Positions 1-42,237 of a stretch of 42,613 nt of DNA are shown here, one piece after another; position 1 is the stretch's first letter, and each line of letters opens with the position of its first letter. Position numbers and translations under genes: made by a program. The notes beneath the pieces were generated by a model. It had not been told where the DNA came from. It worked only from the letters and a program-made list of their open reading frames with translations, and made no database searches. Source of the stretch: a virus (lineage: Duplodnaviria > Heunggongvirae > Uroviricota > Caudoviricetes); IMG/VR virus record IMGVR_UViG_2703718839_000008; one strand, given 5' to 3'.

Positions 1-708
1 ATGTGGGTCAATAAGTATATTGACGATTGCACTGATGAGGATTTAAACGATCGTGACTTTATTGCATCAGTTGTTGACCGGGCTATTTTTCATTTCGCGA
101 TTAATAGTATATGTAATCCTGGGGATAATAAAGATGCAATGCCCATTGAACAATGTACTTTTGATGTAGAAACTAAGAATGACCTTCCCTCCACGGTTCA
201 GCTATTTTATGAGGAATCTAAGGATAATGAACCTTTAGCGAATATACATTTTCAAGCAATAGGTTCTGGTTTTTTAACGTTTGTTAATGCCTGCCAGGAA
301 CATGATGACAACAGCTTAAAATTATTTGCTTCGCTGTTAATTTCACTTTCATATTCTAGTGCCTACGCAGATTTATCAGAAACAGTGTATATTAATGAAA
401 ATAATGAGAGCTACCTGAAAGCTCAGTTTGAAAAATTATCTCAACGTGATATGAAGAAGTACCTGGGAGAGATGAAGCGTCTGGCTGATGGGGGAGAAAT
501 GAATTTTGATGGCTATCTGGATAAGATGTCACATCTGGTGAATGAAGGAACGCTCGATCCTGATATTTTAAGCAAAATGCGAGATGCTGCACCACAATTA
601 ATTAGCTTCGCGAAGTCGTTTGACCCAACCTCAAAGGAAGAGATTAAAATACTTACAGACACTTCTAAATTAATTTATGATTTGTTCGGGGTTAAATCGG
701 AGAAATAA
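1..708 (+). CDS. Host-flank hypothetical protein, 235 aa; by size and position upstream of dusA possibly YjbM
   Basis: Full ORF starting at base 1, followed by a hairpin and T-tract; AT-rich. Identification is by context and length only, not sequence recall. Confidence 0.45.
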   Translation: MWVNKYIDDCTDEDLNDRDFIASVVDRAIFHFAINSICNPGDNKDAMPIEQCTFDVETKNDLPSTVQLFYEESKDNEPLANIHFQAIGSGFLTFVNACQEHDDNSLKLFASLLISLSYSSAYADLSETVYINENNESYLKAQFEKLSQRDMKKYLGEMKRLADGGEMNFDGYLDKMSHLVNEGTLDPDILSKMRDAAPQLISFAKSFDPTSKEEIKILTDTSKLIYDLFGVKSEK

Positions 709-749
709 TATGTGAAGTTCTTCGATAGTATGGAAGGCATTATATAAAA

Positions 750-778
750 GGACCCAATATTTATTGGGTTCTTTTTTC
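750..778 (+). terminator. Rho-independent terminator after the 1-708 gene
   Basis: gacccaata / tattgggtt stem followed by TTTTTT. Confidence 0.6.
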
Positions 779-1070
779 TCTATCAATGCTATTAGCAGGG
801 AGATATATCACCAGAGTTTAATGTGTGATTTTTTATTTATCGTCGAACCTGGATTGTTTATCATTGGCCTTAACAAAGTTAACGGCTAATAAGATTATTT
901 CCATCACTTCGTGAGAGCTTCATGCCTTGAGAGGATCTCAATTTTCTTTTGCAATGAGACAGGCGCTTCCTGTTGTTATGGTATAGTACCCCGCTATTGA
1001 GCCTCCTGAATAGTGATGCTGAATAACATAACCCCATGATATATCGATAAAATAATCTCTACATTTGAAA

Positions 1071-1193
1071 ATGCACGGTAATTCTGAAATGCAAAAAATC
1101 AACCAAACCAGCGCAATGCCTGAAAAAACTGACGTTCACTGGAGTGGTCGGTTTAGCGTTGCACCAATGCTCGATAGGATGTACCGTTTTTGA
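1071..1193 (+). pseudogene. dusA: Displaced original 5' end of dusA (first about 35 codons) left at the prophage junction
   Basis: Translates MHGNSEMQKINQTSAMPEKTDVHWSGRFSVAPMLD then diverges (RMYRF, stop); near-identical to the N-terminus of the intact dusA at 41200. Confidence 0.85.
1161..1176. other. attL core region (crossover within dusA codons ...APMLD)
   Basis: Host-like sequence ends at gcaccaatgctcgat; the same atgctcga core is found at 41296-41304. Confidence 0.6.
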
Positions 1194-1318
1194 AAAACAA
1201 GTAGTTATACACTTTGTGGGAGCCTATTGGGAACCCGGTGTTTTCATTTCAAGGTGTAATCCATGCCGGGCATCAGAATGAGATATAATGAGATTTTTAG
1301 TGTTCCGCTTGAGAGTCT

Positions 1319-1855
1319 ATGATGCTTACCCTAGACGAGATAGGTCAATCTGTACGTAACAATATCCAGTTGATTATTGATCATGTCGGCTTACCTCTTG
1401 CTGTTGGTCCGCTCAGTGATGATGATTACAAGATTCTGTGTGGTGGCTATGGTGAGCTTGAATGGGACTATGCGTTAAGCACCTATGGCAACTCCAGAGA
1501 AAAGTATGAGTTCTGCATAAAACTTGTTCAGCAAGGTCGGGTTCAGGGAATACCATCAGGAGCAGCAATTTGTGTTTATGGGGTTGAAGAAAACATCTTT
1601 CGTATCCATATGATCGAAAGGTTTTCTAGAGAAGATGAATCTCACCCATTGAAAGGGCGCATGGTTTTACTCACTCTTATGAGTGCTTTTATATTTTGTA
1701 AAGCTGTTGAATGTAAAGTTGTCCACATTGTAGAGCCAGTACCAGAACTGGTGCAGTATTACGAGTCTTTTGGTTTCCGCATGGAACAGTGCGGTTATGT
1801 GATGTCTGCAGTCATTGATGAGCTGCAGGATATCTTTCTTAAATTTGCTCAGTAG
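1319..1855 (+). CDS. Cargo protein, 178 aa, possible GNAT-like acyltransferase fold
   Basis: ORF just inside attL; C-terminal ...VVHIVEPVPELVQYYESFGF resembles the GNAT C-terminal motif; no confident family match from memory. Confidence 0.4.
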   Translation: MMLTLDEIGQSVRNNIQLIIDHVGLPLAVGPLSDDDYKILCGGYGELEWDYALSTYGNSREKYEFCIKLVQQGRVQGIPSGAAICVYGVEENIFRIHMIERFSREDESHPLKGRMVLLTLMSAFIFCKAVECKVVHIVEPVPELVQYYESFGFRMEQCGYVMSAVIDELQDIFLKFAQ

Positions 1856-2051
1856 GTATAGACGAGAAGGGTCTACAAATTGTAGGATACCCGTCCAGAT
1901 TACCTTAAAGGTACATCTATGGCAGTCGTTTTGTGCTTAAACTACTAAGAAACGATGTCACCAATCGACATGATCGATTGGCATAAGTTAGCGAAACAAG
2001 CTAGCTTTAAAGAGAGGGTTAGAGACGCCTTTACTGTCTCGGGAGTTTTCT

Positions 2052-2225
2052 ATGAAAGATCAAAAAGCAACCAAGCCACAGGTTAAGTTCGACACAATGA
2101 AAGCATTCGCAGGTATGGGTGCTGCTGTTGAAGTTCTGATGAAGGCTGCTCCTAATGCGTTCACTCACGCTACTGTCTCTGGTAAAGAGCAGCAGGGTAA
2201 GCTTCGTCGTCGCAAAGCAGCATGA
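2052..2225 (+). CDS. Small basic protein, 57 aa, hypothetical
   Basis: ATG with GGGAG RBS; MKDQKATKPQVKFDTMKAFAGMGAAVEVLMKAAPNAFTHATVSGKEQQGKLRRRKAA; followed directly by a strong terminator. Below the ORF-track size cutoff. Confidence 0.35.
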   Translation: MKDQKATKPQVKFDTMKAFAGMGAAVEVLMKAAPNAFTHATVSGKEQQGKLRRRKAA

Positions 2226-12878: not shown

Positions 12879-13874
12879 GTGACCGTGAGAGCACTACTGA
12901 CCCCTGAAATAGCCCCGCGTATGGGGATTGTATTGTTCAGACCAGGTTCAGAGCTGATGCCCCTGTTTATGCAGGGGCGTGTCCTGCTGGAGCCTGAGCC
13001 GGAACGTTATTCATCTTTCGCCAGTGGTGCCGTTCCGGCGGCATCACAACCGCTGGCGGATGATCCTGCCGTTAGGGCCGTGTTCCGCAATGAGGCAGTG
13101 ATCCGTCGTGCTGGTGGCGTGGAATGTCTTGAAAGCTGGTTACTTCGTGAAAAAGGCTGCCAGTGGCCTCATTCCGACTGGCACAGCGAGAACATGACCA
13201 CAATGCGACACGCGCCGGGCGCGATCCGTCTGTGCTGGCACTGCGATAACCAGCTGCGCGATCAGTTCACGGAACGGCTGGAATCAATGGCAACGGATAA
13301 CTGTGCCCGCTGGGTGTTGTCTGTAGTCCGTCTGGATCTCGGTTTTGATGATAACCATGCCGTGACAATGCCGGAACTGTGCTGGTGGCTGATTCGTAAT
13401 GACCTGGCGGATGCCTTACCGGAAAGTGCAGCCCGTAAGGCACTGAGATTACCGAAGCCTGTTGTGCCGTCTGTCACCCGGGAAAGTGACCTTGTGCCTT
13501 CGGTTCCTGCCACCAGCATCATCCAGGATAAGGCGAAAAAGGTGCTGGCGCTGAAAGTGGATCCGGAGTCGCCGGAGTCTTTTATGTTACGCCCAAAACG
13601 CCGCCGCTGGGTTAATGAAAAGTACACGCGCTGGGTTAAGACACAGCCGTGTGCATGTTGTGGAAAGCCTGCTGATGATCCCCACCACCTGATAGGCCAC
13701 GGTCAGGGTGGAATGGGTACAAAAGCGCATGACCTCTTTGTGTTGCCTTTGTGCAGAAAGCATCACGACGAGCTGCATGCGGATACCGTGGCATTTGAAG
13801 AGAAGTATGGCTCTCAGCTGGAGCTGATATTTCGTTTTATCGATCGTGCGCTGGCAATTGGCGTATTGGCGTAA
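12879..13874 (+). CDS. DUF968-family nin-region protein (putative HNH-like C-terminus)
   Basis: C-terminal CACCGKPADDPHHLIGHG...LCRKHHDELH; GTG start. Confidence 0.6.
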   Translation: MTVRALLTPEIAPRMGIVLFRPGSELMPLFMQGRVLLEPEPERYSSFASGAVPAASQPLADDPAVRAVFRNEAVIRRAGGVECLESWLLREKGCQWPHSDWHSENMTTMRHAPGAIRLCWHCDNQLRDQFTERLESMATDNCARWVLSVVRLDLGFDDNHAVTMPELCWWLIRNDLADALPESAARKALRLPKPVVPSVTRESDLVPSVPATSIIQDKAKKVLALKVDPESPESFMLRPKRRRWVNEKYTRWVKTQPCACCGKPADDPHHLIGHGQGGMGTKAHDLFVLPLCRKHHDELHADTVAFEEKYGSQLELIFRFIDRALAIGVLA

Positions 13875-13887
13875 GTGGAGAACGAGC

Positions 13888-14640
13888 ATGAACCTTGAAG
13901 CCTTACCAAAATATTACTCCCCAAAATCTCCAAAATTGAGCGATGACGCACCGGCGACAGGCTCAGGTGGTTTAACGATTACGGATGTGATGGCTGCGCA
14001 GGGGATGGTGCAGTCGAAAGCACCGCTTGGGTTTGCCTTATTCCTGGCAAAAGTTGGTGTTCAGGATCCTCAATTTGCGATTGAAGGTCTGCTCAATTAC
14101 GCGATGGCACTGGATAACCCGACATTGAACAAATTGAGTGAAGAAACCCGGTTACAGATCATCCCTTACCTTGTGAATTTTGCCTTTGCTGATTATTCCA
14201 GGTCTGCGGCAAGTAAGGCTCGCTGTGAGCATTGTGCTGGTACTGGATTTCATAATGTATTGCGCGAAGTGGTGAAACACTCCAGAAGCGGGGAATCTGT
14301 TATCAAGGAAGAGTGGGTGAAGGAACTATGTCAGCATTGTCATGGTAAGGGAGAAGTCAGCACAGCGTGCAGAGGGTGTAAGGGTAAAGGTATTGTCCTG
14401 GATGAAAAAAGGACCCGGCTTCATGGCACGCCTGTTTATAAGATTTGTGGGCGTTGCAATGGAAACCGGTTTAGCCGTTTACCAACCACACTGGCGCGGC
14501 ATCATGTCCAGAAGCTGGTACCAGACCTGACGGATTATCAGTGGTACAAAGGATATGCAGATGTCATTGATAAACTGGTTACAAAGTGCTGGCAGGAAGA
14601 AGCATATGCAGAGATACAATTGAGAAAGGTGACAAGATAA
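13888..14640 (+). CDS. Late-gene antiterminator Q-like protein
   Basis: Multiple CxxC zinc-binding pairs; immediately upstream of the PR'-like promoter and terminator; GGAG RBS at MNLEAL. The ORF could instead start at 13846. Confidence 0.65.
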   Translation: MNLEALPKYYSPKSPKLSDDAPATGSGGLTITDVMAAQGMVQSKAPLGFALFLAKVGVQDPQFAIEGLLNYAMALDNPTLNKLSEETRLQIIPYLVNFAFADYSRSAASKARCEHCAGTGFHNVLREVVKHSRSGESVIKEEWVKELCQHCHGKGEVSTACRGCKGKGIVLDEKRTRLHGTPVYKICGRCNGNRFSRLPTTLARHHVQKLVPDLTDYQWYKGYADVIDKLVTKCWQEEAYAEIQLRKVTR

Positions 14641-15246: not shown

Positions 15247-16299
15247 ATGAAAAATACTGTAAAAATAAACAGTGTTGATTTAATCAACGCTGATTGCCTG
15301 CATTTTATTCAGTCCTTGCCTGATGATTCCATTGATCTGATTGTTACCGATCCGCCGTACTTCAAAGTGAAGCCCAACGGCTGGGACAATCAGTGGAAAG
15401 GGGACGAAGATTACCTGAAGTGGCTGGACTACTGTCTGGCCCAGTTCTGGCGGGTACTGAAACCAGCCGGAAGCCTTTACCTGTTCTGTGGACATCGCCT
15501 CGCATCTGATATCGAGATCATGATGCGTGAACGTTTCAACGTGCTTAACCATATCATCTGGGCGAAGCCGTCCGGACGATGGAACGGGTGTAATAAAGAA
15601 AGCCTGCGGGCATATTTCCCCGCTACAGAGCGCGTTCTGTTTGCTGAACATTACCAGGGGCCATATCGCGGCAAAAGTGACGGCTATGCGGCAAAAGAAA
15701 GGGAACTCAAACAGCACATAATGGCACCGCTGATATCGTATTTCAGGGATGCTCGTGCCGAACTGGGTATAACGGCAAAACAAATTGCCGAAGCCACAGG
15801 TAAGAAAAATATGGTTTCCCACTGGTTTGGTGCCAGTCAGTGGCAGTTGCCGAATGAGGCTGACTATCGGAAGTTACAGGCACTGTTTTCCCGTATAGCG
15901 GCAGAGAAGTTTCAGGAACAACAACTGGAACAACCACACCACCAGCTGGTGGCATCTTATGATTCACTGAATCGCAAATATTCTGAATTGCTGGATGAGT
16001 TTAAATCTCTCCGGCGCTATTTCTCCGTATCAGTCTCCGTGCCTTATACCGATGTCTGGACGCATAAGCCCGTTCAGTTCTACCCGGGTAAACATCCGTG
16101 CGAGAAACCGGCGGATATGCTCCGGCAAATAATCAATGCCAGTAGTCGACCTGGTGATCTGGTTGCTGATTTCTTTATGGGATCCGGTTCCACAATAAAA
16201 GCAGCAATGGCGCTGGGGCGTCGGGCGTTAGGTGTTGAACTTGAGTCAGAGCGGTTTAATCAGACGGTGAAAGAGGTAAGTGAACTGGTGGGGAAATAA
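15247..16299 (+). CDS. DNA methyltransferase (beta-class N6A/N4C type), orphan, in the late region
   Basis: N-terminal DPPY motif (LIVTDPPYF) and C-terminal FMGSGST AdoMet motif; no adjacent nuclease. Confidence 0.75.
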   Translation: MKNTVKINSVDLINADCLHFIQSLPDDSIDLIVTDPPYFKVKPNGWDNQWKGDEDYLKWLDYCLAQFWRVLKPAGSLYLFCGHRLASDIEIMMRERFNVLNHIIWAKPSGRWNGCNKESLRAYFPATERVLFAEHYQGPYRGKSDGYAAKERELKQHIMAPLISYFRDARAELGITAKQIAEATGKKNMVSHWFGASQWQLPNEADYRKLQALFSRIAAEKFQEQQLEQPHHQLVASYDSLNRKYSELLDEFKSLRRYFSVSVSVPYTDVWTHKPVQFYPGKHPCEKPADMLRQIINASSRPGDLVADFFMGSGSTIKAAMALGRRALGVELESERFNQTVKEVSELVGK

Positions 16300-28544: not shown

Positions 28545-28900
28545 TGGCCCGTATCGGGGGAACCTGTTATTTCAAAATTGACGGTCAGCAGCTATCGCTG
28601 ACCGGCGGCATTGAGGTGCCCATGAACAGGACGGTCAATGATGACATCATCGGCCTGGACGGTTCAGTGGACCGCAAGGAAACTCACCGTGCGCCTTATG
28701 TCAAAGGGACTTTCAAGGTGCCGAAGAATTTTCCGGTGAACAAAATCACCTCGTCTGATGAGATGACTATCACTGCCGAGCTGGCGAACGGTCAGGTCTA
28801 TGTACTGTCGTCTGCCTGGCTGCACGGCGAAGCGAACCATAATGCCGAAGAAGGCACGGTCGATCTTGAGTTCCACGGTGAAGAAGGGGATTACCAGTAA
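28544..28900 (+). CDS. Tail tube protein (Mu M-like)
   Basis: 118 aa following sheath. Confidence 0.7.
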   Translation: MARIGGTCYFKIDGQQLSLTGGIEVPMNRTVNDDIIGLDGSVDRKETHRAPYVKGTFKVPKNFPVNKITSSDEMTITAELANGQVYVLSSAWLHGEANHNAEEGTVDLEFHGEEGDYQ

Positions 28901-29169
28901 TGAAAGAGCTTGAGTTAAAGAAACCGATTACTGCTCATGGCGAGACACTCTCCGTACTGGAGTTTGATGAGCCCACCGGGAAGGATGTCCGCGAGCTGGG
29001 GTATCCCTACCAGATGAATCAGGATGAGTCCGTCAGACTTCTGGCGCATGTGGTGTCGAAATACATTGTGCGGCTGGCGAAAGTGCCGCAAAGCTCTGTC
29101 GACCAGATGTCTCCGGCAGACCTGAATGCAGCGGCGTGGCTTGTGGCTGGTTTTTTCCTCCAGGCCTGA
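28900..29169 (+). CDS. Tail assembly chaperone (short form); -1 frameshift product extends to 29318
   Basis: Conserved position before tape measure; slippery T_TTT_TTC near 3' end; -1 frame ORF 29136-29318 overlaps. Confidence 0.7.
   Translation: MKELELKKPITAHGETLSVLEFDEPTGKDVRELGYPYQMNQDESVRLLAHVVSKYIVRLAKVPQSSVDQMSPADLNAAAWLVAGFFLQA
29151..29157 (+). promoter_or_regulatory. Programmed -1 ribosomal frameshift slippery heptamer
   Basis: T TTT TTC in zero frame, 4 codons before the stop; -1 frame continues as FFPPGLTAEY... to 29318. Confidence 0.6.
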
Positions 29170-29310
29170 CGGCTGAATACCTCACTGATCGCTTCTTTGA
29201 CTGCGCCAGCTACTGGCGCATTAATCCCTTCGAATTGCTGAGTATGCCGATCAGTGAAATTCCCTTGCTGGTCAGTCAGGCAAACAGGATAGAGCAGGAG
29301 AAACGCACAC

Positions 29311-31143
29311 ATGGCTGAATTTGAGCTTAAGGCGTTGATCACCGGTGTCGACAGGCTTTCTCCCGCGCTGTCGAAAATGCAAAAGAAAATCCGGGGATTT
29401 AAACGCCAGGCGGAAGAAGCGTCACAGGGTGGGCTGGCGCTTGGGGGCGGATTGGCAGCGGGTCTGACGCTTTCCCTGAAATCTTATGCCGATCAGGAAA
29501 ACGCCGCCACCGGGCTGAAAGTCGCCATGATGGATGCGAACGGCGAGGTTGGAAAGAGCTTTCAGGACATCAATAAACTGGCTATTGGCCTGGGTAACCA
29601 GCTACCTGGTACAACGGCTGATTTCCAGAACATGATGCAGATGCTGGTGCGTCAGGGGATCCCGGCAGAAAACATTCTTGGCGGTGTGGGTAAAGCGACA
29701 GCTTATCTTGCGGTACAACTGAAAAAAACACCGGAAGCGGCTGCCGAGTTTGCCGCAAAGATGCAGGATGCTACCGGAACGGCGTCAGAAGACATGATGG
29801 GGCTGTTCGACACTATCCAGAAGGCGTTTTATCTGGGCGTTGACGATACCAACATGTTGTCCTTCTTCACTAAAACCAGCTCTGTTCTGAAGATGGTGAA
29901 CAAGGACGGTCTTCAGGCTGCACAGAGCCTTGCCCCCATCAGCGTCATGATGGATCAGATGGGGATGAACGGGGAGGCGGCAGGTAATGCCCTGCGAAAA
30001 GTTATCCAGTCCGGATTAAGTGTTAAGAAAATCAGGGACGTCAATAAAGTCATGGCCCGCCAGAAACTCGGGGTACAGCTCGATTTTACTGACGGCAAAG
30101 GAAGTTTTGGCGGTCTTGATAACATGTTTAAGCAACTGGCAAAGTTGCGAAAACTGACTGACGTTAAGCGAACTAATGTACTTAAGGCAATATTTGGTGA
30201 TGATGCCGAAACCATTCAGGTGGTCAATGCGCTGATCGATAAAGGAAAGGATGGTTACGATCAGATCCAGCAGAAGATGAATAAACAGGCCAGCCTGAAT
30301 AAACGTGTTCAGGCACAGCTTGGTACGTTGTCCAACCTGTGGGAGGCAATGACGGGGACCGCAACTAACGGCCTTGCAGCTATTGGCGGCGCATTTTCTG
30401 GTGACGCTAAAAATATCACGCAATGGCTGGGGGAGTTGGGGGAGAAATTCACGAAGTTTGCGGATCAAAATCCCCGGGTTATTCGCGGCGTCGTCGGGCT
30501 TGCTGCCGGTCTTGCGATTCTGAAACTGGGATTGATGGGCGTGGGCAGTGCCATCAGTATCGTCAGCAGGATCATGTCGATGACGCCGATTGGCATGATT
30601 GCGACGGCGATTGCCCTGGCTGCGGGATTAATTATCACTAACTGGGATGTTGTTGGACCTTATTTCAAGAAGCTCTGGGAAACCATTGGTCCTTATTTTG
30701 AGGTTGGCTGGGAACTCCTCAAGAAAGTTTTTGCCTGGTCGCCGCTGGGGATGGTGATCAATAACTGGGGACCGGTTGTTAAGTGGTTTCAGGATATGTG
30801 GGACAAGCTGAAGCCAATTATTGAGTGGTTTACTGACAGTTCCGGTGACACGGTCGATGCCATTAACTCTGCGCAGTGGGGCGCAGGTGCCTATGATGCT
30901 TATGGGACGGGAATACCGGCGCGGGGATACACACCTTACCCGGCGGTGGATCCGGCGCAGTCAAACAACGCCTCCGGTGCCACAGGCCCGAATCCCTTCA
31001 TGATAAACAAAGCTTCTGCGCCAAAAGTTGATGGTGAGATCAAGGTATCTTTTGTGAATATGCCACCAGGTATGCGGGTTATGGAAACGCGATCCAGCGG
31101 TATTGATGTCAGCCATGATGTTGGCTATACGCGGTTCAGGTAG
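29311..31143 (+). CDS. Tail tape measure protein
   Basis: 610 aa, helical, with Gly/Ala-rich and hydrophobic segments. Confidence 0.85.
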   Translation: MAEFELKALITGVDRLSPALSKMQKKIRGFKRQAEEASQGGLALGGGLAAGLTLSLKSYADQENAATGLKVAMMDANGEVGKSFQDINKLAIGLGNQLPGTTADFQNMMQMLVRQGIPAENILGGVGKATAYLAVQLKKTPEAAAEFAAKMQDATGTASEDMMGLFDTIQKAFYLGVDDTNMLSFFTKTSSVLKMVNKDGLQAAQSLAPISVMMDQMGMNGEAAGNALRKVIQSGLSVKKIRDVNKVMARQKLGVQLDFTDGKGSFGGLDNMFKQLAKLRKLTDVKRTNVLKAIFGDDAETIQVVNALIDKGKDGYDQIQQKMNKQASLNKRVQAQLGTLSNLWEAMTGTATNGLAAIGGAFSGDAKNITQWLGELGEKFTKFADQNPRVIRGVVGLAAGLAILKLGLMGVGSAISIVSRIMSMTPIGMIATAIALAAGLIITNWDVVGPYFKKLWETIGPYFEVGWELLKKVFAWSPLGMVINNWGPVVKWFQDMWDKLKPIIEWFTDSSGDTVDAINSAQWGAGAYDAYGTGIPARGYTPYPAVDPAQSNNASGATGPNPFMINKASAPKVDGEIKVSFVNMPPGMRVMETRSSGIDVSHDVGYTRFR

Positions 31144-31242
31144 TGTACAAAATGATTAATGTGTTTTTGTCTGGCATAATTTGGGTTTTCAACTTTAAGC
31201 AGTTAATATAATCACTCCTTACAAATGATTGAAGGGATGATT

Positions 31243-31737
31243 ATGCGTATCTTTGTGTTTTTTATATCTGCACTTTTATCTTTTAACTTGGCAGCGGAAG
31301 AGTGTAAGTTCAGCTTTAATGAGTCAGAATTAATCTCTTCTATAGGTATTGCACCAGTTAAGCAAGAGATAGTAAAGGATGAAGGAATAACTAAGCGTCA
31401 ATATGAATTCAGGAGAGAATTGTCTTTTGAAGAAATGCTTGGCGATGATGCTGATGAAAAATATGAGCCGCAGTTTTATATATCTGTTTATAATCCATCA
31501 TGTCCACAAAAGGTTATTATTTGGTTTTTCAAAGACAATAAAAACACACAAACTTTAAGTAATGAGGTCCTTGCTGGTAGAGCATTCAAGTATTTAACTG
31601 GTGTTAATGAAAGTATTTTTGAAAATAAAATGAAAAAGTTTTCAAAGGTACAGTCATTTGAATCCTTTGATGAAAGGACGGACTCTAAATTTATAAAGAG
31701 TGGTAATGTTTATTCCATTGATGTTCAACTCAGATAG
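31243..31737 (+). CDS. AT-rich moron encoding a secreted protein with N-terminal signal peptide, 164 aa
   Basis: MRIFVFFISALLSFNLAAEE signal peptide; much lower GC than flanking tail genes; own RBS, possible TATAAT upstream and own terminator. Confidence 0.6.
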   Translation: MRIFVFFISALLSFNLAAEECKFSFNESELISSIGIAPVKQEIVKDEGITKRQYEFRRELSFEEMLGDDADEKYEPQFYISVYNPSCPQKVIIWFFKDNKNTQTLSNEVLAGRAFKYLTGVNESIFENKMKKFSKVQSFESFDERTDSKFIKSGNVYSIDVQLR

Positions 31738-31754
31738 TAATTAAAAATATTAGG

Positions 31755-31813
31755 TTCCCGCCACATCTTCTGCGATGTAAATAACTGACAAAGCAGATTT
31801 GGCGGGTTTTTTG
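31755..31813 (+). terminator. Terminator after the moron
   Basis: cccgccacatc...gatttggcggg interrupted stem followed by TTTTTT. Confidence 0.55.
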
Positions 31814-31827
31814 TATCCGGAGTTTAT

Positions 31828-33156
31828 ATGACGTGGAAAGACAGGCTTCAGGATGCGTCATTTCGCGGCGTACCGTTTAAGGTTGAAGAAGAAAGTGCGG
31901 GAACCGGTCGCCGTGTGGAAACACACGAATATCCGAACCGCGACAAGCCCTATACCGAAGATCTGGGAAAAGTCACTTTCCGCCCGTCCATCACAGCTTA
32001 TGTGGTGGGAGATGACTGCTTTGACCAGCGCGATCGCCTGATTGACGCGCTGAATAAACCCGGTCCCGGCACGCTTGTCCACCCGACATATGGTGAGCTG
32101 AAAGTCTGTGTTGACGGGGAAGTTCGGGTCAGCACATCGAAAAGTGAAGGGCGTATTGTCCGCTTTGACCTGAAGTTTGTCGAAGCAGGAGAACTCTCTT
32201 ACCCCACATCAGGTGCGGCGACGGCGCAGACGCTGATGTCATCCTGTTCTGCACTGGATGACTGCATCAGTGACAGCTTCAGCGGTTTCAGTATCGATGG
32301 TGTGGCGGATTTTGTGCAGAACGACGTTATCGGTAATGCCAGCATAATGCTGGGGTATGTTTCTGATGCGATGAAAGTGGTGGATTCTGCCGTATCGGAT
32401 GCCGCCAGGCTGTTGCAGGGGGATATCTCGGTACTTCTGCCGCCGCCATCGTCAGGCAAAAATTTCGTTGAGCAGGTGCAGAAAATGTGGCGTACCGGGA
32501 AACGCCTTTATGGTAACGCCAGCGACCTGGTCACCATGATCAAAACGCTTTCCGGTGTCAGCCTCGGCAGCGATCTGCAACCGCGCGGCGTCTGGAAAAC
32601 GGACAGTAAAACCACCGCCACGGCGACGCAGCAGCGTAACGTGGTTGCCAGCACCCTTCGTACGACCGCAATCAGCGAAGCGGCGTATGCCGTCACCCGA
32701 TTGCCTGCGCCAACAACTTCCGCGGTGATGCAGAATTCCGCAGTGGGGCAGGCAACAACACCTGCGCAGAGCACTGGCTGGCCTTCCGTCACGCATCCGG
32801 CACTGAACAATGCACCGGCGGTGAAAAACACAGTTGACCTGCCGACGTGGGAAGAACTGACTGACATTCGCGACACACTGAATACGGCAATTGATAAGGA
32901 GTTGTCCCGTACAACCAGTGATGCGCTGTTTCTGGCGCTGCGCCGGGTGAAAGCAGATCTGAATGCGGATATCAACACGCGCCTTGAACAGTCTGCACGG
33001 ATCATTCAGCGCACACCGGATGAGGTTTTACCCGCGCTGGTGCTGGCGGCGACCTGGTTTGATAACGCGGCGCGTGACGCGGACATTATCCGGCGTAATG
33101 CCATTACGCATCCCGGCTTTGTGCCGGTGATCCCTCTGAAGGTGCCAGTGCAATGA
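31828..33156 (+). CDS. Mu N-like DNA circularization protein (tail/baseplate)
   Basis: N-terminal MTWKDRLQDASFRGVPFKVEEESAGTGRRVETHEYPNRD is typical of the family. Confidence 0.7.
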   Translation: MTWKDRLQDASFRGVPFKVEEESAGTGRRVETHEYPNRDKPYTEDLGKVTFRPSITAYVVGDDCFDQRDRLIDALNKPGPGTLVHPTYGELKVCVDGEVRVSTSKSEGRIVRFDLKFVEAGELSYPTSGAATAQTLMSSCSALDDCISDSFSGFSIDGVADFVQNDVIGNASIMLGYVSDAMKVVDSAVSDAARLLQGDISVLLPPPSSGKNFVEQVQKMWRTGKRLYGNASDLVTMIKTLSGVSLGSDLQPRGVWKTDSKTTATATQQRNVVASTLRTTAISEAAYAVTRLPAPTTSAVMQNSAVGQATTPAQSTGWPSVTHPALNNAPAVKNTVDLPTWEELTDIRDTLNTAIDKELSRTTSDALFLALRRVKADLNADINTRLEQSARIIQRTPDEVLPALVLAATWFDNAARDADIIRRNAITHPGFVPVIPLKVPVQ

Positions 33157-36828: not shown

Positions 36829-37467
36829 ATGCATCGTATAGACACGAAAACCGCGCAGAAGGATAAGTTCGGCGCGGGTAAGAACGGTTTTACCCGTGGT
36901 AACCCCCAGACCGGCACACCTGCCACCGATCTGGATGATGACTACTTTGACATGTTGCAGGAGGAGCTTTGCAGCGTTGTGGAGGCATCCGGTGCCAGCC
37001 TGGAGAAGGGGCGGCACGACCAGCTGCTTACCGCGCTTCGTGCGCTGCTGTTAAGCCGCAAGAATCCGTTTGGTGATATCAAATCGGATGGCACGGTGAA
37101 AACGGCTCTCGAAAACCTTGGTTTGGGGGAATTGGCTCTGGCTGGCGCAACAACCGGCGCTATGTTGGTGAATGGGTATGTAGCAATTCCATTAATTATT
37201 TCTGGCGTTCGGAGACCACTTATTATCCAGTGGGGAGTGGGGCAGTTTGGGGGAAGTCTGGGGGATGATGCGGGATATTTAAACAATTTCCCTTTCGCTT
37301 TTCCGTCGGCGTGCTACGTGATGGTTGCCAGCCACGTGGGGCATACACCTTCGGGTGCCGGAATACTATCTGCTTCCGCAATCACAAAAAGCGGCTTTCG
37401 TGGTTTTTCCAGCGTAGCGACTGCCGCAAATCCTGTATCGGGCTGTTATGTTGCTATAGGAGGGTGA
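36829..37467 (+). CDS. Tail fibre protein: constant N-terminal part fused to variable C-terminal part in current orientation
   Basis: N-terminus [55 protein letters not shown] matches e14/Mu-type fibre N-termini; recombination site falls within codons ENLGLGE. Confidence 0.8.
37108..37130. repeat. Left inverted-repeat recombination site (gix/pix-like) of the invertible fibre segment
   Basis: ctcgaaaaccttggtttgggggaa is the near-inverse of 38912-38934; resembles Gin/Hin site core. Confidence 0.6.
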
Positions 37468-37468
37468 T

Positions 37469-37903
37469 GTGTTTTTTAGTCCATCTTTAAATATTTTTGT
37501 GAATCCTGCGCTTAAGGATGACTACATCAATGAAAATTCATGGCCAGATGATGCTGTTGAAGTTGATGAGCAGGTGTATATTGAGTTTTCCGGATTACCG
37601 CCGAAAGGAAAAATCCGTATCGCTGGGGAAAATGGTTTTCCTGCATGGTCTGAAATTCCACCACCAACGCATGAGGAACAGATTGCCGCAGCCGAATTGA
37701 AAAAACAGCAATTGATTAATCAGTCCAACGAATATATGAATACCAAGCAATGGCCTGGTAAAGCGGCTATTGGTCGTCTGAAAGGTGAGGAACTGGCGCA
37801 ATATAATTTGTGGCTGGATTATCTGGACGCACTGGAACTGGTTGATACCTCCAGTGCTCCAGATATTGAATGGCCTACGCCTCCGGCAGTTCAGGCCAGA
37901 TGA
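37469..37903 (+). CDS. Tail fibre assembly protein
   Basis: GTG start after GGAGGG; C-terminal ...LDYLDALELVDTSSAPDIEWP typical of Tfa chaperones. Confidence 0.7.
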   Translation: MFFSPSLNIFVNPALKDDYINENSWPDDAVEVDEQVYIEFSGLPPKGKIRIAGENGFPAWSEIPPPTHEEQIAAAELKKQQLINQSNEYMNTKQWPGKAAIGRLKGEELAQYNLWLDYLDALELVDTSSAPDIEWPTPPAVQAR

Positions 37904-38468
37904 CATCCGGCGCGGTGCTCGTATCTGTTGCCGTCGCCGCGTCAATGTAATCAAGCACGGCGTTAAGCCGGGTGGTTTCTGCCTGCGTCAGCTTCCGCCC
38001 GGCCTGTAATTTCAGCTGAATCAGACTGATGGAAGCCATTGCAGCATCAATCAGTGACTGGCGCTGTGCTTCTGCCGCTTCTACTGCGGCACCGTGTTGT
38101 GCCTCAGTATCTGTCACCCATTTCTCACCATCCCATTTATCATATGGCGTTAACGGTGAAAGCGTGACATAACCGTTTTTGATGGCACCGATATAATCCA
38201 CTGTAACAGCAGCACCATTTTCGATTGAGTAAACAGTCTCATTGCGATGGTCTTCTTCATGGCTCCATCCCTTACCTGTAAATACTGCCACTCTTCCCGG
38301 AATGTTTTCGCCAGGGTCAATACCAGTGGAACAGGCGGGCATACTTACGCCAGTATTAATATATTCATCAGACCAGCCCGTATACTCAGATGTTTCAGCA
38401 TCATAATAAAAACAACGCATATCGCCCGGCACTGTAGCCAGCCCATTTTCATCAAAAACAGGTTTCAT
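37875..38468 (-). CDS. Alternative tail fibre assembly protein, opposite orientation
   Basis: Convergent with and overlapping the plus-strand Tfa gene; C-terminal ...LDYIDAATATDTSTAPDVIWP motif. Confidence 0.7.
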   Translation of the reverse strand: MKPVFDENGLATVPGDMRCFYYDAETSEYTGWSDEYINTGVSMPACSTGIDPGENIPGRVAVFTGKGWSHEEDHRNETVYSIENGAAVTVDYIGAIKNGYVTLSPLTPYDKWDGEKWVTDTEAQHGAAVEAAEAQRQSLIDAAMASISLIQLKLQAGRKLTQAETTRLNAVLDYIDAATATDTSTAPDVIWPELPEA

Positions 38469-38925
38469 TATTTAGCCCTCACCAGAAAGTTAAATGCAAT
38501 ATTTCGCGGTCTGACAGCAACAAAATTCACACCATCACCCACAGAGTTACTGGTGAAATTAAATCGTGAAAATCCTGGCTGATTTCCGGCGATGCCATCA
38601 TGAAAGTTAATTGCGTGTCCCGCACCTCCGCCTATATTCCCGGCAAACTGAGAAAAGTTTGTAGCTTCCTGCCAGCTTAATAATTCGCGACCACCATCGG
38701 CACCTCGCCCGTCATCCCAGATACGAATGAAATCACCGCGGGCTTCAGGTAATACCAGTGAAGGAAACACTTTCGCCAGCACAGGGTAATCAGAGGCAGA
38801 AAATTTCGCCCCGTTGAACTTCAAAAACACCATACTGGACCAGCTGTCGATTACAGTATTTGGCATTGCAGCGGACGGCCAGAAGAACGGAACGCCAATA
38901 GCTGGAGCACCTTCTCCCAAACCAA
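38468..38925 (-). CDS. Alternative variable tail-fibre C-terminal segment, start-less, expressed only after inversion
   Basis: Reads from the right recombination site as LGLGEGAPAIG..., joining in frame to ...ENLGLGE; no own start codon. Confidence 0.65.
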
Positions 38926-38934
38926 CCTTTCAAA
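38912..38934. repeat. Right inverted-repeat recombination site of the invertible segment
   Basis: ttctcccaaaccaacctttcaaa; reverse complement matches the left site with few mismatches. Confidence 0.6.
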
Positions 38935-38996
38935 TATTTTTCTGAATCAGGTGATATTTCGCCTCTTCTCCTGTTTTTACAACAGGAGAAGCACTC

Positions 38997-39560
38997 ATGA
39001 TTTACGGGTATGTTCGTGTATCAACAAATCATCAGGATACAGAGTTGCAACGTCTTGCACTTGAGTCAGCTGGCTGTGAGCGAATTTATGAAGAATATGC
39101 CAGTGGCAGAACAGCTAATCGCCCTGTGTTAAAGGAATTAATTACGGTGATGAAAAGTGGAGATGAGTTGATTGTCTGGAAGTTAGATCGGATAGGGAGA
39201 AATGTGCTGCATGCGCTATTGATGTTTCAAAATCTGCACGAAAAAGGTGTTAATTTTCGGAGTATTACAGATGGCGTAGACCTGAAAACAGCAAGTGGTC
39301 GCTATAATTTCCGTAATATTCTTTCTGCTGCGCAGTATGAATCTGATTTGAATAGCGAGCGAACTTTAGCTGGTTTGGCTATTGCCAGATCCAAAGGCCG
39401 GATTGGTGGGCGTAGACCGAAGTTTAGCGACGAGCAGTGGCAACAGATGGGAGCGATCATAGCGGCAGGGAAATCACGGCGTTATGTTGCACGTATCTAT
39501 AACGTTGGGCTATCAACCCTATATAAACGATTTCCTGTTACTGGCATTCAAACGAAATAA
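38997..39560 (+). CDS. pin: Serine DNA invertase (Pin/Gin/Hin family)
   Basis: MIYGYVRVSTNHQDTELQ... catalytic Ser, resolvase domain and C-terminal HTH; adjacent to the invertible segment; AGGAGA RBS. Confidence 0.85.
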   Translation: MIYGYVRVSTNHQDTELQRLALESAGCERIYEEYASGRTANRPVLKELITVMKSGDELIVWKLDRIGRNVLHALLMFQNLHEKGVNFRSITDGVDLKTASGRYNFRNILSAAQYESDLNSERTLAGLAIARSKGRIGGRRPKFSDEQWQQMGAIIAAGKSRRYVARIYNVGLSTLYKRFPVTGIQTK

Positions 39561-40013: not shown

Positions 40014-41111
40014 TCAAGAGGCCTTATTTCTGCTCCTTTGGAGCTCTTCAAAACGATTATGTAAAGATTTCGGATACAGTTCGGTATATACCTGCCATAG
40101 CACGTTTAATGAACGATGCCCTGTAACCTGGGCGACTTCCTCAATACTAAAACCAGCCTCAAATAAGCGACTTGCCCCTTCTCTACGCAAATCATGGTAT
40201 CGCAGATCTTTAATACCTAATTTGCTTCTTACCCTCTGGAATCCCGCAGTAACAGAAGTGCTGTTATATGGAAAAATGAATTCTGATTTTTTGGGTTGTC
40301 GTTGGACGATATCCCAGGCTTCCCCAAGCAAGGCTACTTTCATATGGTTGCCTTCCTTTTTACGTGGATCTTTCCTGTCTCTTACGAGTATGGATTTTTG
40401 TTCCTGATCGAGATCCTCCCATCGTAATCGGCATACTTCACCGATTCGCATACATGACCACACAGAAAATTTGAGGATATCAACGAACGGAATTTTTGAG
40501 CATTTATGTGTAGATCGTTGTTGAAGACCTTCAATGAGCATGTCCAGTTCATCAGATGCCGGTCTACGATTACGACGATTTGATTTACCAATTAAACCAA
40601 GTTTAAGTAGATATGGACGAGCGGCTTTTGCTGGGTTTGATGTGTAATTAATTCCATATACAGGTTTGGCAGCATCCAGAACACTGCCAAGATAACTAAC
40701 ATCGTGGCTAACTGTAGCTGGACCTGCACCAGCGTTGTTTCTTAGCCTGCAATGTTCAATTACGTCATTTTCTGTCAGTTCAGATAGTTTGAGCGCGGAG
40801 ACGTCACTATCCATAAGCAGTTCCAGCACATATCTTTTAGTACGGCCTGCTTTACCTCCGGCATTTGGGTCATTTAAATATTTGTGTAGTAAGTCACGGA
40901 CTGTAAGTCCGTCAACTGCATTTGATGATGGAATGCCATATAGATCTAATTCCATCACTTTCTGTGTGCCCCATGTTTTGGCATGAGCATGTTTAGGGAA
41001 TGTTTTACTTTCCCTGTAAGTGATAACACCTTTTTCTTTGATAATCACATTACAGCGATAGCGTGGTGTGCCATCGGATTTTAGTCGTTTCTCTATGTTA
41101 TAGTATGCCAT
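40014..41111 (-). CDS. int: Tyrosine integrase (dusA-targeting type)
   Basis: 365 aa with C-terminal tyrosine recombinase catalytic region (R..H..R..Y); adjacent to attR within dusA. Confidence 0.85.
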   Translation of the reverse strand: MAYYNIEKRLKSDGTPRYRCNVIIKEKGVITYRESKTFPKHAHAKTWGTQKVMELDLYGIPSSNAVDGLTVRDLLHKYLNDPNAGGKAGRTKRYVLELLMDSDVSALKLSELTENDVIEHCRLRNNAGAGPATVSHDVSYLGSVLDAAKPVYGINYTSNPAKAARPYLLKLGLIGKSNRRNRRPASDELDMLIEGLQQRSTHKCSKIPFVDILKFSVWSCMRIGEVCRLRWEDLDQEQKSILVRDRKDPRKKEGNHMKVALLGEAWDIVQRQPKKSEFIFPYNSTSVTAGFQRVRSKLGIKDLRYHDLRREGASRLFEAGFSIEEVAQVTGHRSLNVLWQVYTELYPKSLHNRFEELQRSRNKAS

Positions 41112-41199
41112 TACACGACCTCGTTATTTCGGGTTCCCATAAAACGTGGGAACCTGTGCGGGAACCTAACGCGAGAAAAATAGCCTGAAATGTTCAAAA

Positions 41200-42237
41200 A
41201 TGCACGATAATCATGAAACACAAAAAATTAATCAAACCAGCGTGATGCCTGAAAAAACTGGTGTTTACTGGAATTCTCGGTTTAGCATTGCTCCTATGCT
41301 CGACTGGACGGACAGACATTGCCGCTATTTCTTGCGTCTGCTTTCCCGCAATACGTTGCTGTATACCGAAATGGTGACCACAGGGGCGATTATTCACGGT
41401 AAAGGTGATTATCTGGCGTACAGTGAAGAAGAACATCCGGTAGCGTTGCAACTGGGCGGTAGCGATCCGGCGGCGCTGGCGCAGTGTGCAAAGCTGGCAG
41501 AAGCGCGCGGATATGATGAGATCAACCTGAATGTCGGCTGCCCGTCTGACCGGGTGCAGAACGGCATGTTTGGTGCGTGTCTGATGGGTAATGCGCAGCT
41601 GGTTGCCGACTGCGTGAAAGCGATGCGCGATGTGGTGTCGATTCCGGTGACGGTGAAAACGCGTATTGGCATCGACGACCAGGACAGCTATGAATTTCTC
41701 TGCGATTTCATCAATACCGTTTCCGGCAAAGGCGAGTGTGAGATGTTCATCATCCACGCACGTAAAGCCTGGCTTTCGGGGTTAAGCCCGAAAGAAAACC
41801 GTGAAATCCCGCCGCTCGATTATCCGCGTGTGTATCAACTGAAGCGTGACTTTCCGCATCTGACAATGTCGATTAACGGTGGTATCAAGTCGCTGGAAGA
41901 GGCCAAAGCACACCTGCAACATATGGATGGCGTGATGGTCGGGCGCGAGGCGTATCAGAATCCGGGTATTCTGGCGGCGGTAGACCGGGAGATCTTTGGT
42001 TCCTCGGATACCGATGCCGATCCGGTGGCGGTAGTGCGCGCCATGTATCCGTACATTGAGCGTGAACTCAGCCAGGGGACGTATCTCGGCCATATTACCC
42101 GGCATATGTTGGGCTTGTTCCAGGGTATTCCTGGCGCGCGGCAGTGGCGGCGTTATTTAAGTGAAAATGCCCATAAAGCGGGTGCAGACATTAATGTGCT
42201 GGAACACGCGCTCAAACTGGTGGCGGATAAGCGTTAA
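41200..42237 (+). CDS. dusA: tRNA-dihydrouridine synthase A, intact, with phage-supplied 5' end
   Basis: 345 aa; [63 protein letters not shown]... Dus-family TIM barrel. Confidence 0.9.
41296..41304. other. attR core within the reconstituted dusA 5' end
   Basis: atgctcgac shared with the left junction; upstream differs at several codons from the displaced host 5' end. Confidence 0.55.

What the first reader, a model, noticed from the sequence alone, without database searches (positions are those of the whole stretch)
31144..31813. AT-rich secreted-protein moron inserted between tape measure and baseplate genes
A 164-aa ORF with a clear N-terminal signal peptide, own ribosome-binding site, possible TATAAT -10 upstream and its own terminator interrupts an otherwise tightly coupled Mu-like tail operon. 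Its GC content is visibly lower than its neighbours, indicating horizontal acquisition. Morons at late-operon positions are typically expressed from the prophage and encode envelope-associated exclusion, serum-resistance or virulence factors.
Basis: seen in the sequence. Interest (0 to 1): 0.6.

Follow-up and report, generated by a model that had tools for sequence, protein, structure and literature searches.

The report
Periplasmic-protein cargo gene in prophage tail operon
A small, AT-rich gene for an exported (periplasmic) protein of unknown function sits in a cargo slot between the tape-measure and baseplate genes of an SfV-like E. coli prophage; it is a real, conserved but dispensable accessory gene of a familiar kind (a "moron"), most plausibly protecting the lysogen's envelope against other phages.

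Summary
A 164-aa ORF (31243-31737, +) lies between the tape-measure gene (29311-31143) and the Mu gp43-type DNA-circulation gene (31828-33156). It has an AAGGGA ribosome site, a Sec-type signal peptide, 32% GC against 52-56% in the flanks, and a downstream hairpin plus T-run.

The window is an SfV-like E. coli prophage at dusA. SfV, SfI and SfII, with ~97% identical flanks, lack the gene. Among 5,426 complete E. coli genomes this junction is empty in ~531, holds this gene in ~85, and holds one of four unrelated low-GC genes in ~300. So it is a dispensable cargo gene in a hotspot, not a tail part.

"Recent horizontal acquisition" is not supported. Phage-borne homologues down to 28% identity (Kluyvera, Atlantibacter, Yersinia ruckeri, a Pantoea phage) occupy the same slot, all AT-rich and under purifying selection (dN/dS 0.04-0.2).

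The terminator belongs to the slot and is present in empty sites too. A promoter is only suggested, by a conserved TTGnnn-N17-TAnnAT.

The protein is an orphan: PHROG 8976, no Pfam match, and a confident AF2 model with no PDB relative. Function is inferred, not shown; the best guess is periplasmic superinfection exclusion. It is a new member of a known kind, of moderate interest.

The parts
29311..31143 (+). Tail tape-measure protein gene (upstream flank). Its last codons (from about 31135) differ between cargo states, which marks the left recombination boundary.
   Evidence: Pfam PhageMin_Tail 1.3e-26. Junction alignments.
31135..31806 (+). Cargo cassette: the segment that replaces 52 nt of the empty SfII/SfV-type junction. 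GC is 32.6%.
   Evidence: Alignment with the SfII empty site and with phage SKA5. GC.
31181..31212 (+). Candidate sigma-70 promoter: -35 TTGGGT 31181-31186, a 17-nt spacer, -10 TAATAT 31204-31209. It is weak by consensus (7 of 12).
   Evidence: Not called by the scanner. A TTGnnn-N17-TAnnAT element 35-40 nt upstream of the ATG recurs in diverged lineages; the two A's of the -10 are invariant in the alignment. In two distant lineages a TATAAT/TACAAT at the same distance is formed by the tape-measure gene's last codons.
31232..31237 (+). Shine-Dalgarno AAGGGA, 5 nt upstream of the ATG at 31243.
   Evidence: Read from the sequence. A purine-rich G-run element (AAGGGA, TAGGGA, TAGGAG or GGGGGA) lies a few nt upstream of the start in the homologues.
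31243..31737 (+). CDS of the 164-aa precursor (PHROG 8976, function unknown; RefSeq WP_001219113.1 'hypothetical protein').
   Evidence: dN/dS 0.04-0.20.
31243..31296 (+). Signal-peptide coding part (residues 1-18, MRIFVFFISALLSFNLAA). Predicted SPase I cleavage is after the invariant Ala18.
   Evidence: Alignments, hydrophobicity, pLDDT below 50. No lipobox.
31297..31734 (+). Mature 146-aa (17.1 kDa, pI 5.1) soluble periplasmic domain with a conserved Cys21/Cys87 pair. Predicted alpha/beta fold with seven beta-strands and flanking helices.
31757..31812 (+). Intrinsic terminator: hairpin 31757-31806 plus T6 at 31807-31812, directly upstream of the DNA-circulation gene's ribosome site (GGAG 31819-31822).
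   Evidence: dG -21.2 kcal/mol, z -4.0. Equivalent hairpins with compensatory stem changes occur in all lineages and in empty sites.
31828..33156 (+). Mu gp43-type DNA-circulation (baseplate-associated) protein gene (downstream flank).
   Evidence: Pfam DNA_circ_N 2.9e-34.
13846..14640 (+). Q-type late antiterminator. Not part of the cassette, but it explains read-through of the internal terminator during lytic growth.
   Evidence: Pfam Antiterm 1.3e-53.

Best explanation
The feature is a single-gene accessory cassette (a moron in the Hendrix/Juhala sense). It sits in a cargo hotspot between the tape-measure gene and the baseplate genes of SfV-like temperate phages, which have a Mu-type contractile tail and lambdoid Q-dependent late transcription.

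Its product is exported by Sec, cleaved after Ala18, probably oxidised to a Cys21-Cys87 disulfide, and remains as a soluble ~17-kDa acidic protein in the periplasm.

It can be transcribed in two ways. The first is from a weak conserved promoter about 35-40 nt upstream, ending at the slot's intrinsic terminator; this would allow expression from the repressed prophage. The second is read-through of the Q-antiterminated late transcript.

The phage does not need it to build or use its tail.

The most likely job is inferred, not shown. It would act in the periplasm against incoming phages, by binding or disturbing the tape-measure/tail-tip conduit that carries DNA across the periplasm. This would be a soluble-periplasmic counterpart of HK97 gp15, P22 SieA, TP-J34 Ltp or P1 Sim.

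Sub-probabilities:
- Dispensable accessory cargo gene: about 0.9.
- Exported periplasmic protein: about 0.85.
- Expressed from the prophage by its own promoter: about 0.5.
- Function is phage exclusion at the envelope: about 0.35.
For: Shown here.

Presence/absence polymorphism:
- The flanks are about 97% identical in phages with and without the gene.
- Of 5,426 complete E. coli genomes, 863 carry the joined flanks.
- The junction is empty in ~531 genomes and holds this gene in 84-85.
- Other occupants are a 176-aa anchored protein (174), an OB-fold protein (54), a 225-aa lipoprotein (54) and a bPH_1 protein (24).
- The alternative genes are unrelated to it. All are low-GC (34-42%), and one is on the opposite strand.
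- Three of the four alternatives, like this gene, carry envelope-targeting N-termini.
- The OB-fold occupant matches PHROG 8545, annotated 'superinfection exclusion Sie-like' (1.5e-49).

Real gene:
- dN/dS is 0.04-0.20.
- 49 residues are invariant among nine sequences.
- The AF2 model has pLDDT 85.9 and pTM 0.79.

Export:
- The signal-peptide properties are conserved although the sequence varies, the -1 Ala is invariant, and a conserved Cys pair is present.

Transcription signals:
- The terminator is thermodynamically significant and conserved with compensatory changes.
- A conserved -35/-10-like element is present.
- A Q antiterminator is present.

Context from the literature:
- Morons are defined as extra DNA with deviant GC, a promoter and a terminator. 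The first one, HK97 gene 15 next to the tape-measure gene, is a superinfection-exclusion protein (PMC3594210).
- Exclusion by HK97 gp15 and by TP-J34 Ltp is escaped through tape-measure changes (PMC10883804).
- Distribution follows the phage across niches: E. coli of many sources, Kluyvera, Atlantibacter, Yersinia ruckeri and a Pantoea leaf phage. This favours a phage-centred function.
Against: - The promoter is weak (7/12) and was not called by the scanner.
- In distant lineages the gene starts 15-17 nt after, or overlaps, the tape-measure gene. That looks like an integral late gene.
- The strict conservation of position down to 28% identity is unusual for a freely mobile moron.
- The terminator exists without the gene.
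- The 'Sie-like' label of a neighbouring cargo type is an annotation, not a tested function.
- AT-rich DNA in E. coli is commonly H-NS-silenced (general knowledge), so prophage expression may be low.
Confidence: 0.55

Rival explanations
1. It is a late lytic-cycle periplasmic helper of the phage itself. It would be made with the tail proteins from the late transcript and act in the infected cell's periplasm. Possible roles are blocking secondary adsorption or injection during the latent period, or limiting loss of progeny on debris. It would not be a lysogenic-conversion function.
For: - It has the same orientation as the late operon and sits inside it.
- In Pantoea phage AH07, L062, L078 and the Yersinia ruckeri lineage the gene lies 15-17 nt after, or overlaps, the tape-measure gene. 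That leaves no room for an intergenic promoter.
- Its position has been conserved down to 28% identity.
- No strong promoter is present in the window.
Against: - It is dispensable. SfV, SfI, SfII and SfIV are viable phages without it.
- It is replaced by unrelated genes, including one transcribed on the opposite strand that cannot be part of the late transcript.
- A conserved -10-like element about 35-40 nt upstream exists even where it must be encoded inside the tape-measure gene's last codons.
- The two readings are not exclusive, because morons are usually also read through late.
Confidence: 0.2
2. It is a host-fitness or virulence factor (lysogenic conversion): a periplasmic protein that improves stress, serum or host-colonisation performance of the lysogen, as the first reader suggested by analogy with lambda Bor/Lom.
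For: - The product is exported and the gene is AT-rich prophage cargo.
- It is found in UPEC/APEC and other clinical and animal isolates.
- One chromosomal homologue lies just downstream of a pertactin-type autotransporter.
Against: - It is not a lipoprotein or an outer-membrane protein, so it differs from Bor/Lom.
- Carriers include soil, river, wastewater and commensal strains.
- Homologues occur in a Pantoea phage from a tree leaf and in the fish pathogen Yersinia ruckeri. No common host niche emerges.
- The gene is tied to one phage tail module rather than to pathotypes.
- The chromosomal copy has lost the signal peptide and Cys21.
Confidence: 0.15
3. It is a tail structural or assembly component that is specific to this sub-lineage.
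For: Only its location between the tape-measure and baseplate genes, and its long co-residence with them.
Against: - It has a cleavable Sec signal peptide.
- It is absent from functional phages with ~97% identical tail genes.
- The slot is empty in ~531 E. coli genomes.
- There is no similarity to any structural family in Pfam or PHROGs.
- The slot is interchangeable with a PH-domain protein, a lipoprotein and other unrelated genes.
Confidence: 0.03

Closest known systems
HK97 gene 15 moron (gp15 superinfection-exclusion protein; Juhala 2000, Cumby 2012; reviewed in PMC3594210)
   Same: - Single small gene added inside the tail operon next to the tape-measure gene of a Q-dependent temperate coliphage.
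- GC deviates from the neighbours.
- Followed by a terminator.
- Envelope-located product.
- Absent from close relatives.
   Different: - gp15 is a YebO-like inner-membrane protein placed upstream of the tape-measure gene. This product is a soluble, signal-peptide-cleaved periplasmic protein placed downstream.
- There is no sequence or fold similarity.
- gp15's promoter and exclusion activity are experimentally shown; here neither is.
Periplasm- or surface-exposed exclusion proteins: P1 Sim (processed periplasmic protein; from my own knowledge of Maillou & Dreiseikelmann 1990) and TP-J34 Ltp (PMC3952083, PMC10883804)
   Same: - Prophage-encoded and exported beyond the cytoplasmic membrane.
- Thought to block DNA passage after adsorption.
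- Ltp's block is escaped by tape-measure mutations.
   Different: - No homology detected.
- Ltp is a lipoprotein of Gram-positive hosts.
- Sim is larger and is encoded elsewhere in P1.
- The function of the present protein is untested.
Phage accessory/defence hotspots (e.g. P2/P4 hotspots, Rousset et al. 2022, as cited in PMC11364771 and PMC10884400)
   Same: A fixed position between conserved phage core genes where unrelated, low-GC cargo genes alternate among otherwise near-identical prophages.
   Different: - This slot (tape-measure | DNA-circulation in SfV-like phages) was not found described in my literature searches.
- Its cargo consists of single small genes, mostly envelope-targeted. 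None matches PADLOC defence models.
PHROG 8976
   Same: Full-length match (1-164 of 164 positions, E 1.3e-104). The protein is a member of this catalogued phage family.
   Different: The family has no assigned function, so membership explains nothing mechanistically.

Membership tests
Moron (Juhala/Hendrix definition, as restated in PMC3594210) | Extra DNA relative to otherwise collinear related phages | tested here: met
   The gap between the TMP stop and the DNA-circulation start codon is 684 nt here, against 61 nt in SfII/SfV/SfI, whose flanks are about 97% identical. About 531 E. coli genomes have the empty junction.
Moron (Juhala/Hendrix definition, as restated in PMC3594210) | Base composition differs from the surrounding genes | tested here: met
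   32% GC against 52-56% in the flanks; the lowest stretch in the window. The same holds in every homologous locus. It is therefore a stable property, not proof of recent transfer.
Moron (Juhala/Hendrix definition, as restated in PMC3594210) | Own promoter | tested here: inconclusive
   The scanner finds none. A weak TTGGGT-N17-TAATAT, overlapping TATAAT, is present and its position is conserved across diverged lineages.
Moron (Juhala/Hendrix definition, as restated in PMC3594210) | Own terminator | tested here: met
   Hairpin + T6 at 31757-31812, dG -21.2 kcal/mol, z -4.0, conserved with compensatory changes. However, an equivalent terminator is also present in empty sites, so it belongs to the slot.
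Moron (Juhala/Hendrix definition, as restated in PMC3594210) | Expressed from the repressed prophage | not testable with these tools
   Needs RNA-seq, 5'-RACE or a reporter in lysogens.
Sec/SPase I-exported soluble periplasmic proteins | n-region charge, 10-15-residue hydrophobic core, small residues at -1 and -3, no lipobox | tested here: met
   The signal peptide is MR + 14 hydrophobic residues + L-A-A|E. Ala at -1 is invariant. There is no L-x-[GA]-C lipobox. These properties are conserved across the full-length close homologues. The assessment is heuristic; SignalP was not available.
Known superinfection-exclusion / anti-phage defence protein families | Sequence or profile similarity to a described family | tested here: not met
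   PADLOC returned 0 hits. The only PHROG match is 8976, of unknown function. Pfam and NCBIfam returned 0 hits. The profile search finds only the protein's own family.
Known superinfection-exclusion / anti-phage defence protein families | Reduces infection by incoming phage when expressed alone | not testable with these tools
   Requires plating and DNA-entry assays.
Phage tail structural / assembly proteins | Homology to a structural family and presence in all functional relatives | tested here: not met
   No structural family match. Absent from SfV, SfI, SfII and SfIV.
PHROG 8976 | Full-length significant HMM match | tested here: met
   E 1.3e-104 over positions 1-164 of 164.

The most novel reading that the evidence does not exclude
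The tape-measure | baseplate junction of SfV-like phages may be an undescribed exclusion-gene hotspot. At least five unrelated single-gene cassettes, mostly envelope-targeted, alternate there upstream of a fixed terminator. The 164-aa protein may be the founding member of a new class of soluble periplasmic injection blockers, with a fold not seen in the PDB. It would recognise the tape-measure/tail-tip conduit of contractile-tailed phages in transit. Its long co-residence next to the tape-measure gene, down to 28% identity, could reflect co-evolution with that target.
Probability: 0.2. Interest if true: 0.6.

Novelty: new member of a known kind. Interest (0 to 1): 0.38.

Why it matters
If the protein blocks phage entry from the periplasm, it would add a soluble periplasmic mechanism, and a new fold, to the short list of understood superinfection-exclusion proteins. 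It would also offer a handle on how contractile-tail phages move DNA across the periplasm.

More immediately, the slot is a natural library of small candidate exclusion or fitness genes that current defence-finders (PADLOC) do not recognise. It is occupied in roughly 40% of the ~860 E. coli genomes carrying this tail module, by at least five unrelated cargo genes. This is relevant to phage-therapy host-range prediction in E. coli and Shigella.

If it has no such function, it is simply one more uncharacterised prophage accessory gene.

Tried and rejected
1. An RBS-sequestering hairpin (31208-31220 / 31232-31244) that would make translation depend on promoter choice. It is only -12.2 kcal/mol (z -1.2, 30 of 200 shuffles as good) and is not conserved in homologues. 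Rejected.

3. Profile searches. The PDB sequence profile gives only noise. The 1.84-billion-representative search and the 5.8-billion profile search return only the small family itself.

4. Remote homology between this protein and the other envelope cargo of the slot: hhalign probability at most 1%. They are unrelated.

5. Mobile-element signatures. No convincing direct or inverted repeats flank the insert. Exchange is better explained by homologous recombination in the conserved flanks.

6. Rfam scan of 30900-32000: nothing meaningful.

7. Literature searches for the accession, for SfV morons and for this hotspot. There is nothing on this gene or slot; the SfIV paper's moron is a different region, between Q and the lysis genes.

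8. The GTDB species-representative scan found only Kluyvera sichuanensis and an Atlantibacter MAG.

Full report
**What is there**

Between the tail tape-measure gene (29311-31143; Pfam PhageMin_Tail) and the Mu gp43-type DNA-circulation gene (31828-33156; DNA_circ_N) lies a 684-nt interval. It contains one ORF, 31243-31737 on the + strand, encoding 164 aa.

- **Start and ribosome site.** AAGGGA lies 5 nt upstream of the ATG. An in-frame ATG at 31225 has no ribosome site. PGAP annotates the 164-aa form as a hypothetical protein, WP_001219113.1, in a strain with a 100% identical tail region.
- **Base composition.** The ORF is 32% GC (GC3 27%), against 52% and 56% for the flanking genes. It is the lowest-GC 500-nt stretch of the whole 42.6-kb window.
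- **Terminator.** Downstream is a hairpin (31757-31806) followed by T6 (31807-31812). Its dG is -21.2 kcal/mol, z = -4.0, and none of 200 shuffles folds as well.

**What the element is**

The window is an SfV-like E. coli prophage. It has HK97-type head genes, a Mu-type contractile tail, a lambdoid Q antiterminator at 13846-14640, and an integrase next to dusA.

- Phages SfV, SfI and SfII match the flanks at about 97% identity but lack the gene. In SfII, 61 nt separate the tape-measure stop from the DNA-circulation start codon, and they include a hairpin + T-run that the depositors annotated as a putative terminator.
- Phage SKA5 carries the gene.
- The substitution boundary runs from the last few codons of the tape-measure gene (about 31135) to the terminator stem (about 31806).

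**The slot is a cargo hotspot**

I searched 5,426 complete E. coli genomes with the two flanks joined. They lie close together in 863 genomes. Census of the junction:

| Occupant | Genomes | GC | Notes |
|---|---|---|---|
| Empty (SfII-type) | ~531 | – | hairpin + T-run only |
| 176-aa protein | 174 | 34% | N-terminal anchor |
| This gene | 84-85 | 32% | signal peptide |
| OB-fold tRNA_anti-like protein, 148 aa | 54 | 37% | membrane-anchored, opposite strand |
| Lipoprotein, 225 aa | 54 | 42% | LLGGC lipobox |
| bPH_1 PH-domain protein, 125 aa | 24 | 38% | – |

- The alternative genes are unrelated to this one.
- None hits PADLOC.
- The OB-fold protein matches PHROG 8545, annotated 'superinfection exclusion Sie-like'. 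That is an annotation, not a test.
- Each + strand cargo ends at a variant of the same hairpin + T-run immediately upstream of the DNA-circulation ribosome site. Empty sites have it too. The terminator is therefore a constant of the slot rather than the gene's private terminator.
- Stem variants (CCCGC/GCGGG, CCCAC/GTGGG, CCACC/GGTGG) preserve pairing.
- Q-dependent late transcription explains why such a terminator is tolerated in the tail operon. This is inference from the known lambdoid mechanism; the Q gene itself is shown.

**It is not a recent arrival**

The family is tiny:

- 11 clusters among 5.8 billion proteins.
- 12 representatives among 1.84 billion.
- Nothing new with a profile search.
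- Two of 185,579 species representatives.
- Two isolated phages.

Every phage-borne homologue sits in exactly the same slot, tape-measure | X | DNA_circ_N:

- E. coli alleles at 91-100% identity and metagenomic or isolate-derived prophage contigs at 54-62%.
- Kluyvera and Atlantibacter, 58-60%.
- The Yersinia ruckeri lineage and L062, 36-37%.
- Pantoea phage AH07, 42%.
- L078, 28%.

In all of them the gene is 31-41% GC against 45-57% in the flanks. Synonymous sites are saturated between clades, while dN/dS is 0.04-0.20.

The gene is therefore an old resident of this slot. It has been kept AT-rich and under purifying selection, and repeatedly lost or swapped. Low GC cannot be read as evidence of recent horizontal acquisition.

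In the distant lineages the gene starts 15-17 nt after, or overlaps, the tape-measure gene. This implies late co-transcription there.

One chromosomal, non-phage homologue exists: P0022, 35% identity. It has lost the signal peptide and Cys21, and lies 60 nt downstream of a pertactin-type autotransporter.

**Promoter**

- The consensus scanner finds none.
- An overlapping TAATAT (31204-31209) lies 17 nt from TTGGGT (31181-31186).
- In an alignment of upstream regions from lineages with saturated synonymous divergence, a TTGnnn-N17-TAnnAT element recurs 35-40 nt before the start codon, and the two A's of the -10 are invariant.
- In L062 and L078 a TATAAT or TACAAT at the same distance is formed by the tape-measure gene's final Gly-Tyr-Asn codons.
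- This is suggestive phylogenetic footprinting, not proof.

**The protein**

- **Signal peptide.** Residues 1-18 have the n-, h- and c-regions of an SPase I signal peptide. The -1 Ala is invariant and there is no lipobox. The property is conserved while the sequence drifts.
- **Mature protein.** It is 146 aa, 17.1 kDa, pI 5.1, with two Cys (21 and 87). These are conserved in nearly all homologues, consistent with a periplasmic disulfide.
- **Model.** AlphaFold2 on nine sequences gives a confident model (pLDDT 85.9, pTM 0.79). It has seven beta-strands interleaved with short helices and a helical hairpin.
- **Family searches.** Pfam, NCBIfam and PADLOC give nothing. PHROG 8976, of unknown function, matches full-length.

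**How it most likely works**

*Shown:*
- It is a dispensable cargo gene.
- It has the sequence features of a Sec-exported soluble protein (export itself was not tested experimentally).
- It lies between a candidate promoter and a real terminator.
- It sits inside a Q-antiterminated operon.

*Inferred:*
- In the lysogen a short transcript from the weak promoter stops at the terminator.
- During lytic growth the gene is also read through.

*Function (inference by analogy and position):*
- Many characterised morons in tail operons are envelope proteins that block DNA entry. HK97 gp15, encoded next to the tape-measure gene, is one (PMC3594210).
- Exclusion by gp15 and by TP-J34 Ltp is escaped through tape-measure changes, and P22 SieA targets the trans-periplasmic ejection conduit (PMC10883804).
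- A sibling cargo of this very slot is annotated Sie-like.
- The gene's distribution follows the phage module across unrelated habitats: human, poultry, soil, river, fish pathogen, tree leaf. This favours a phage-directed role over a host-niche role.
- I put about 0.35 on periplasmic superinfection exclusion, about 0.2 on a late lytic-cycle periplasmic role, about 0.15 on a host-fitness or virulence role, and about 0.03 on a structural role.

**Comparison with what is known, and novelty**

- It meets the moron definition on three of five features: extra DNA, deviant GC, and a terminator.
- The promoter test is inconclusive and prophage expression is untestable here.
- It is a member of PHROG 8976.
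- It is not a member of any described exclusion, defence or structural family.
- The kind of thing is familiar. The protein family is uncharacterised, and its fold has no relative among solved structures.
- I did not find this slot described as a hotspot in the searchable literature.
- Verdict: a new member of a known kind, of moderate interest (0.38). The practical value is a short list of five small, mostly envelope-targeted candidate exclusion genes that current defence catalogues miss.

Noticed in passing
window 31757-31822; L001 2360-2400; L057-L060; L004, L008, L062, L071, L074: An intrinsic terminator (hairpin + T-run) immediately upstream of the DNA-circulation gene's ribosome site is kept in every state of the slot, including empty. 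Stem changes are compensatory (CCCGC/GCGGG, CCCAC/GTGGG, CCACC/GGTGG). Why a tail operon keeps a terminator between the tape-measure and baseplate genes is unexplained; possibilities are stoichiometry control or insulation of cargo transcription.
   Followed up: partly
E. coli genomes, loci L057 (765-1142), L058 (742-1188, minus strand), L059 (800-1477), L060 (801-1331): Four other unrelated low-GC single genes occupy the same tape-measure | DNA-circulation slot:
- a bPH_1 PH-domain protein (24 genomes);
- a membrane-anchored OB-fold tRNA_anti-like protein matching PHROG 8545 'Sie-like' (54 genomes);
- a 225-aa lipoprotein (54 genomes);
- a 176-aa N-terminally anchored protein (174 genomes).
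None is in PADLOC.
   Followed up: partly
L076 6001-6471 (metagenome contig ERR5002088_771): There is a chromosomal, non-phage homologue (P0022, 35% identity). It lacks the signal peptide and Cys21, is still 37% GC against 52% in its flanks, and lies 60 nt downstream of a 1079-aa pertactin-type autotransporter, after that gene's terminator. It may be a decayed transferred copy or a cytoplasmic variant.
   Followed up: partly
window 15247-16299: A 350-aa N6/N4 DNA methyltransferase gene lies downstream of the Q antiterminator (13846-14640) and upstream of the packaging and structural genes. The same interval holds the lysis genes in the annotated relative K-15KW01. This is another classic accessory-gene position in lambdoid phages.
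   Followed up: no
window 37113-39560: There is a probable invertible tail-fibre host-range switch:
- 31-nt inverted repeats at 37113-37143 and 38900-38930;
- opposed tail-fibre-assembly genes at 37469-37903 (+) and 37875-38468 (-);
- a serine invertase (Resolvase + HTH_7) at 38997-39560.
The near-identical K-15KW01 prophage lacks about 1.6 kb here.
   Followed up: partly
window 40014-42237: The prophage's right end has a tyrosine integrase (40014-41111, minus strand) abutting dusA (41200-42237). This is the known dusA integration site type.
   Followed up: no
window 28900-29318: The tail assembly chaperone gene (Phage_TAC_7, 28900-29169) is overlapped by a 60-aa ORF in another frame (29136-29318) that runs up to the tape-measure start. 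This is the usual layout for a programmed-frameshift chaperone pair (G/GT-like).
   Followed up: no
window 1-2100 and early region up to about 25000, compared with NZ_CP016358.1: The window is not colinear with strain K-15KW01 in the early and left region: coordinates are offset and the left-end content differs, including a DUF2713 ORF at 1-708. The tail region is 100% identical. This is typical lambdoid mosaicism. The left end is also low-GC (35-40%).
   Followed up: no
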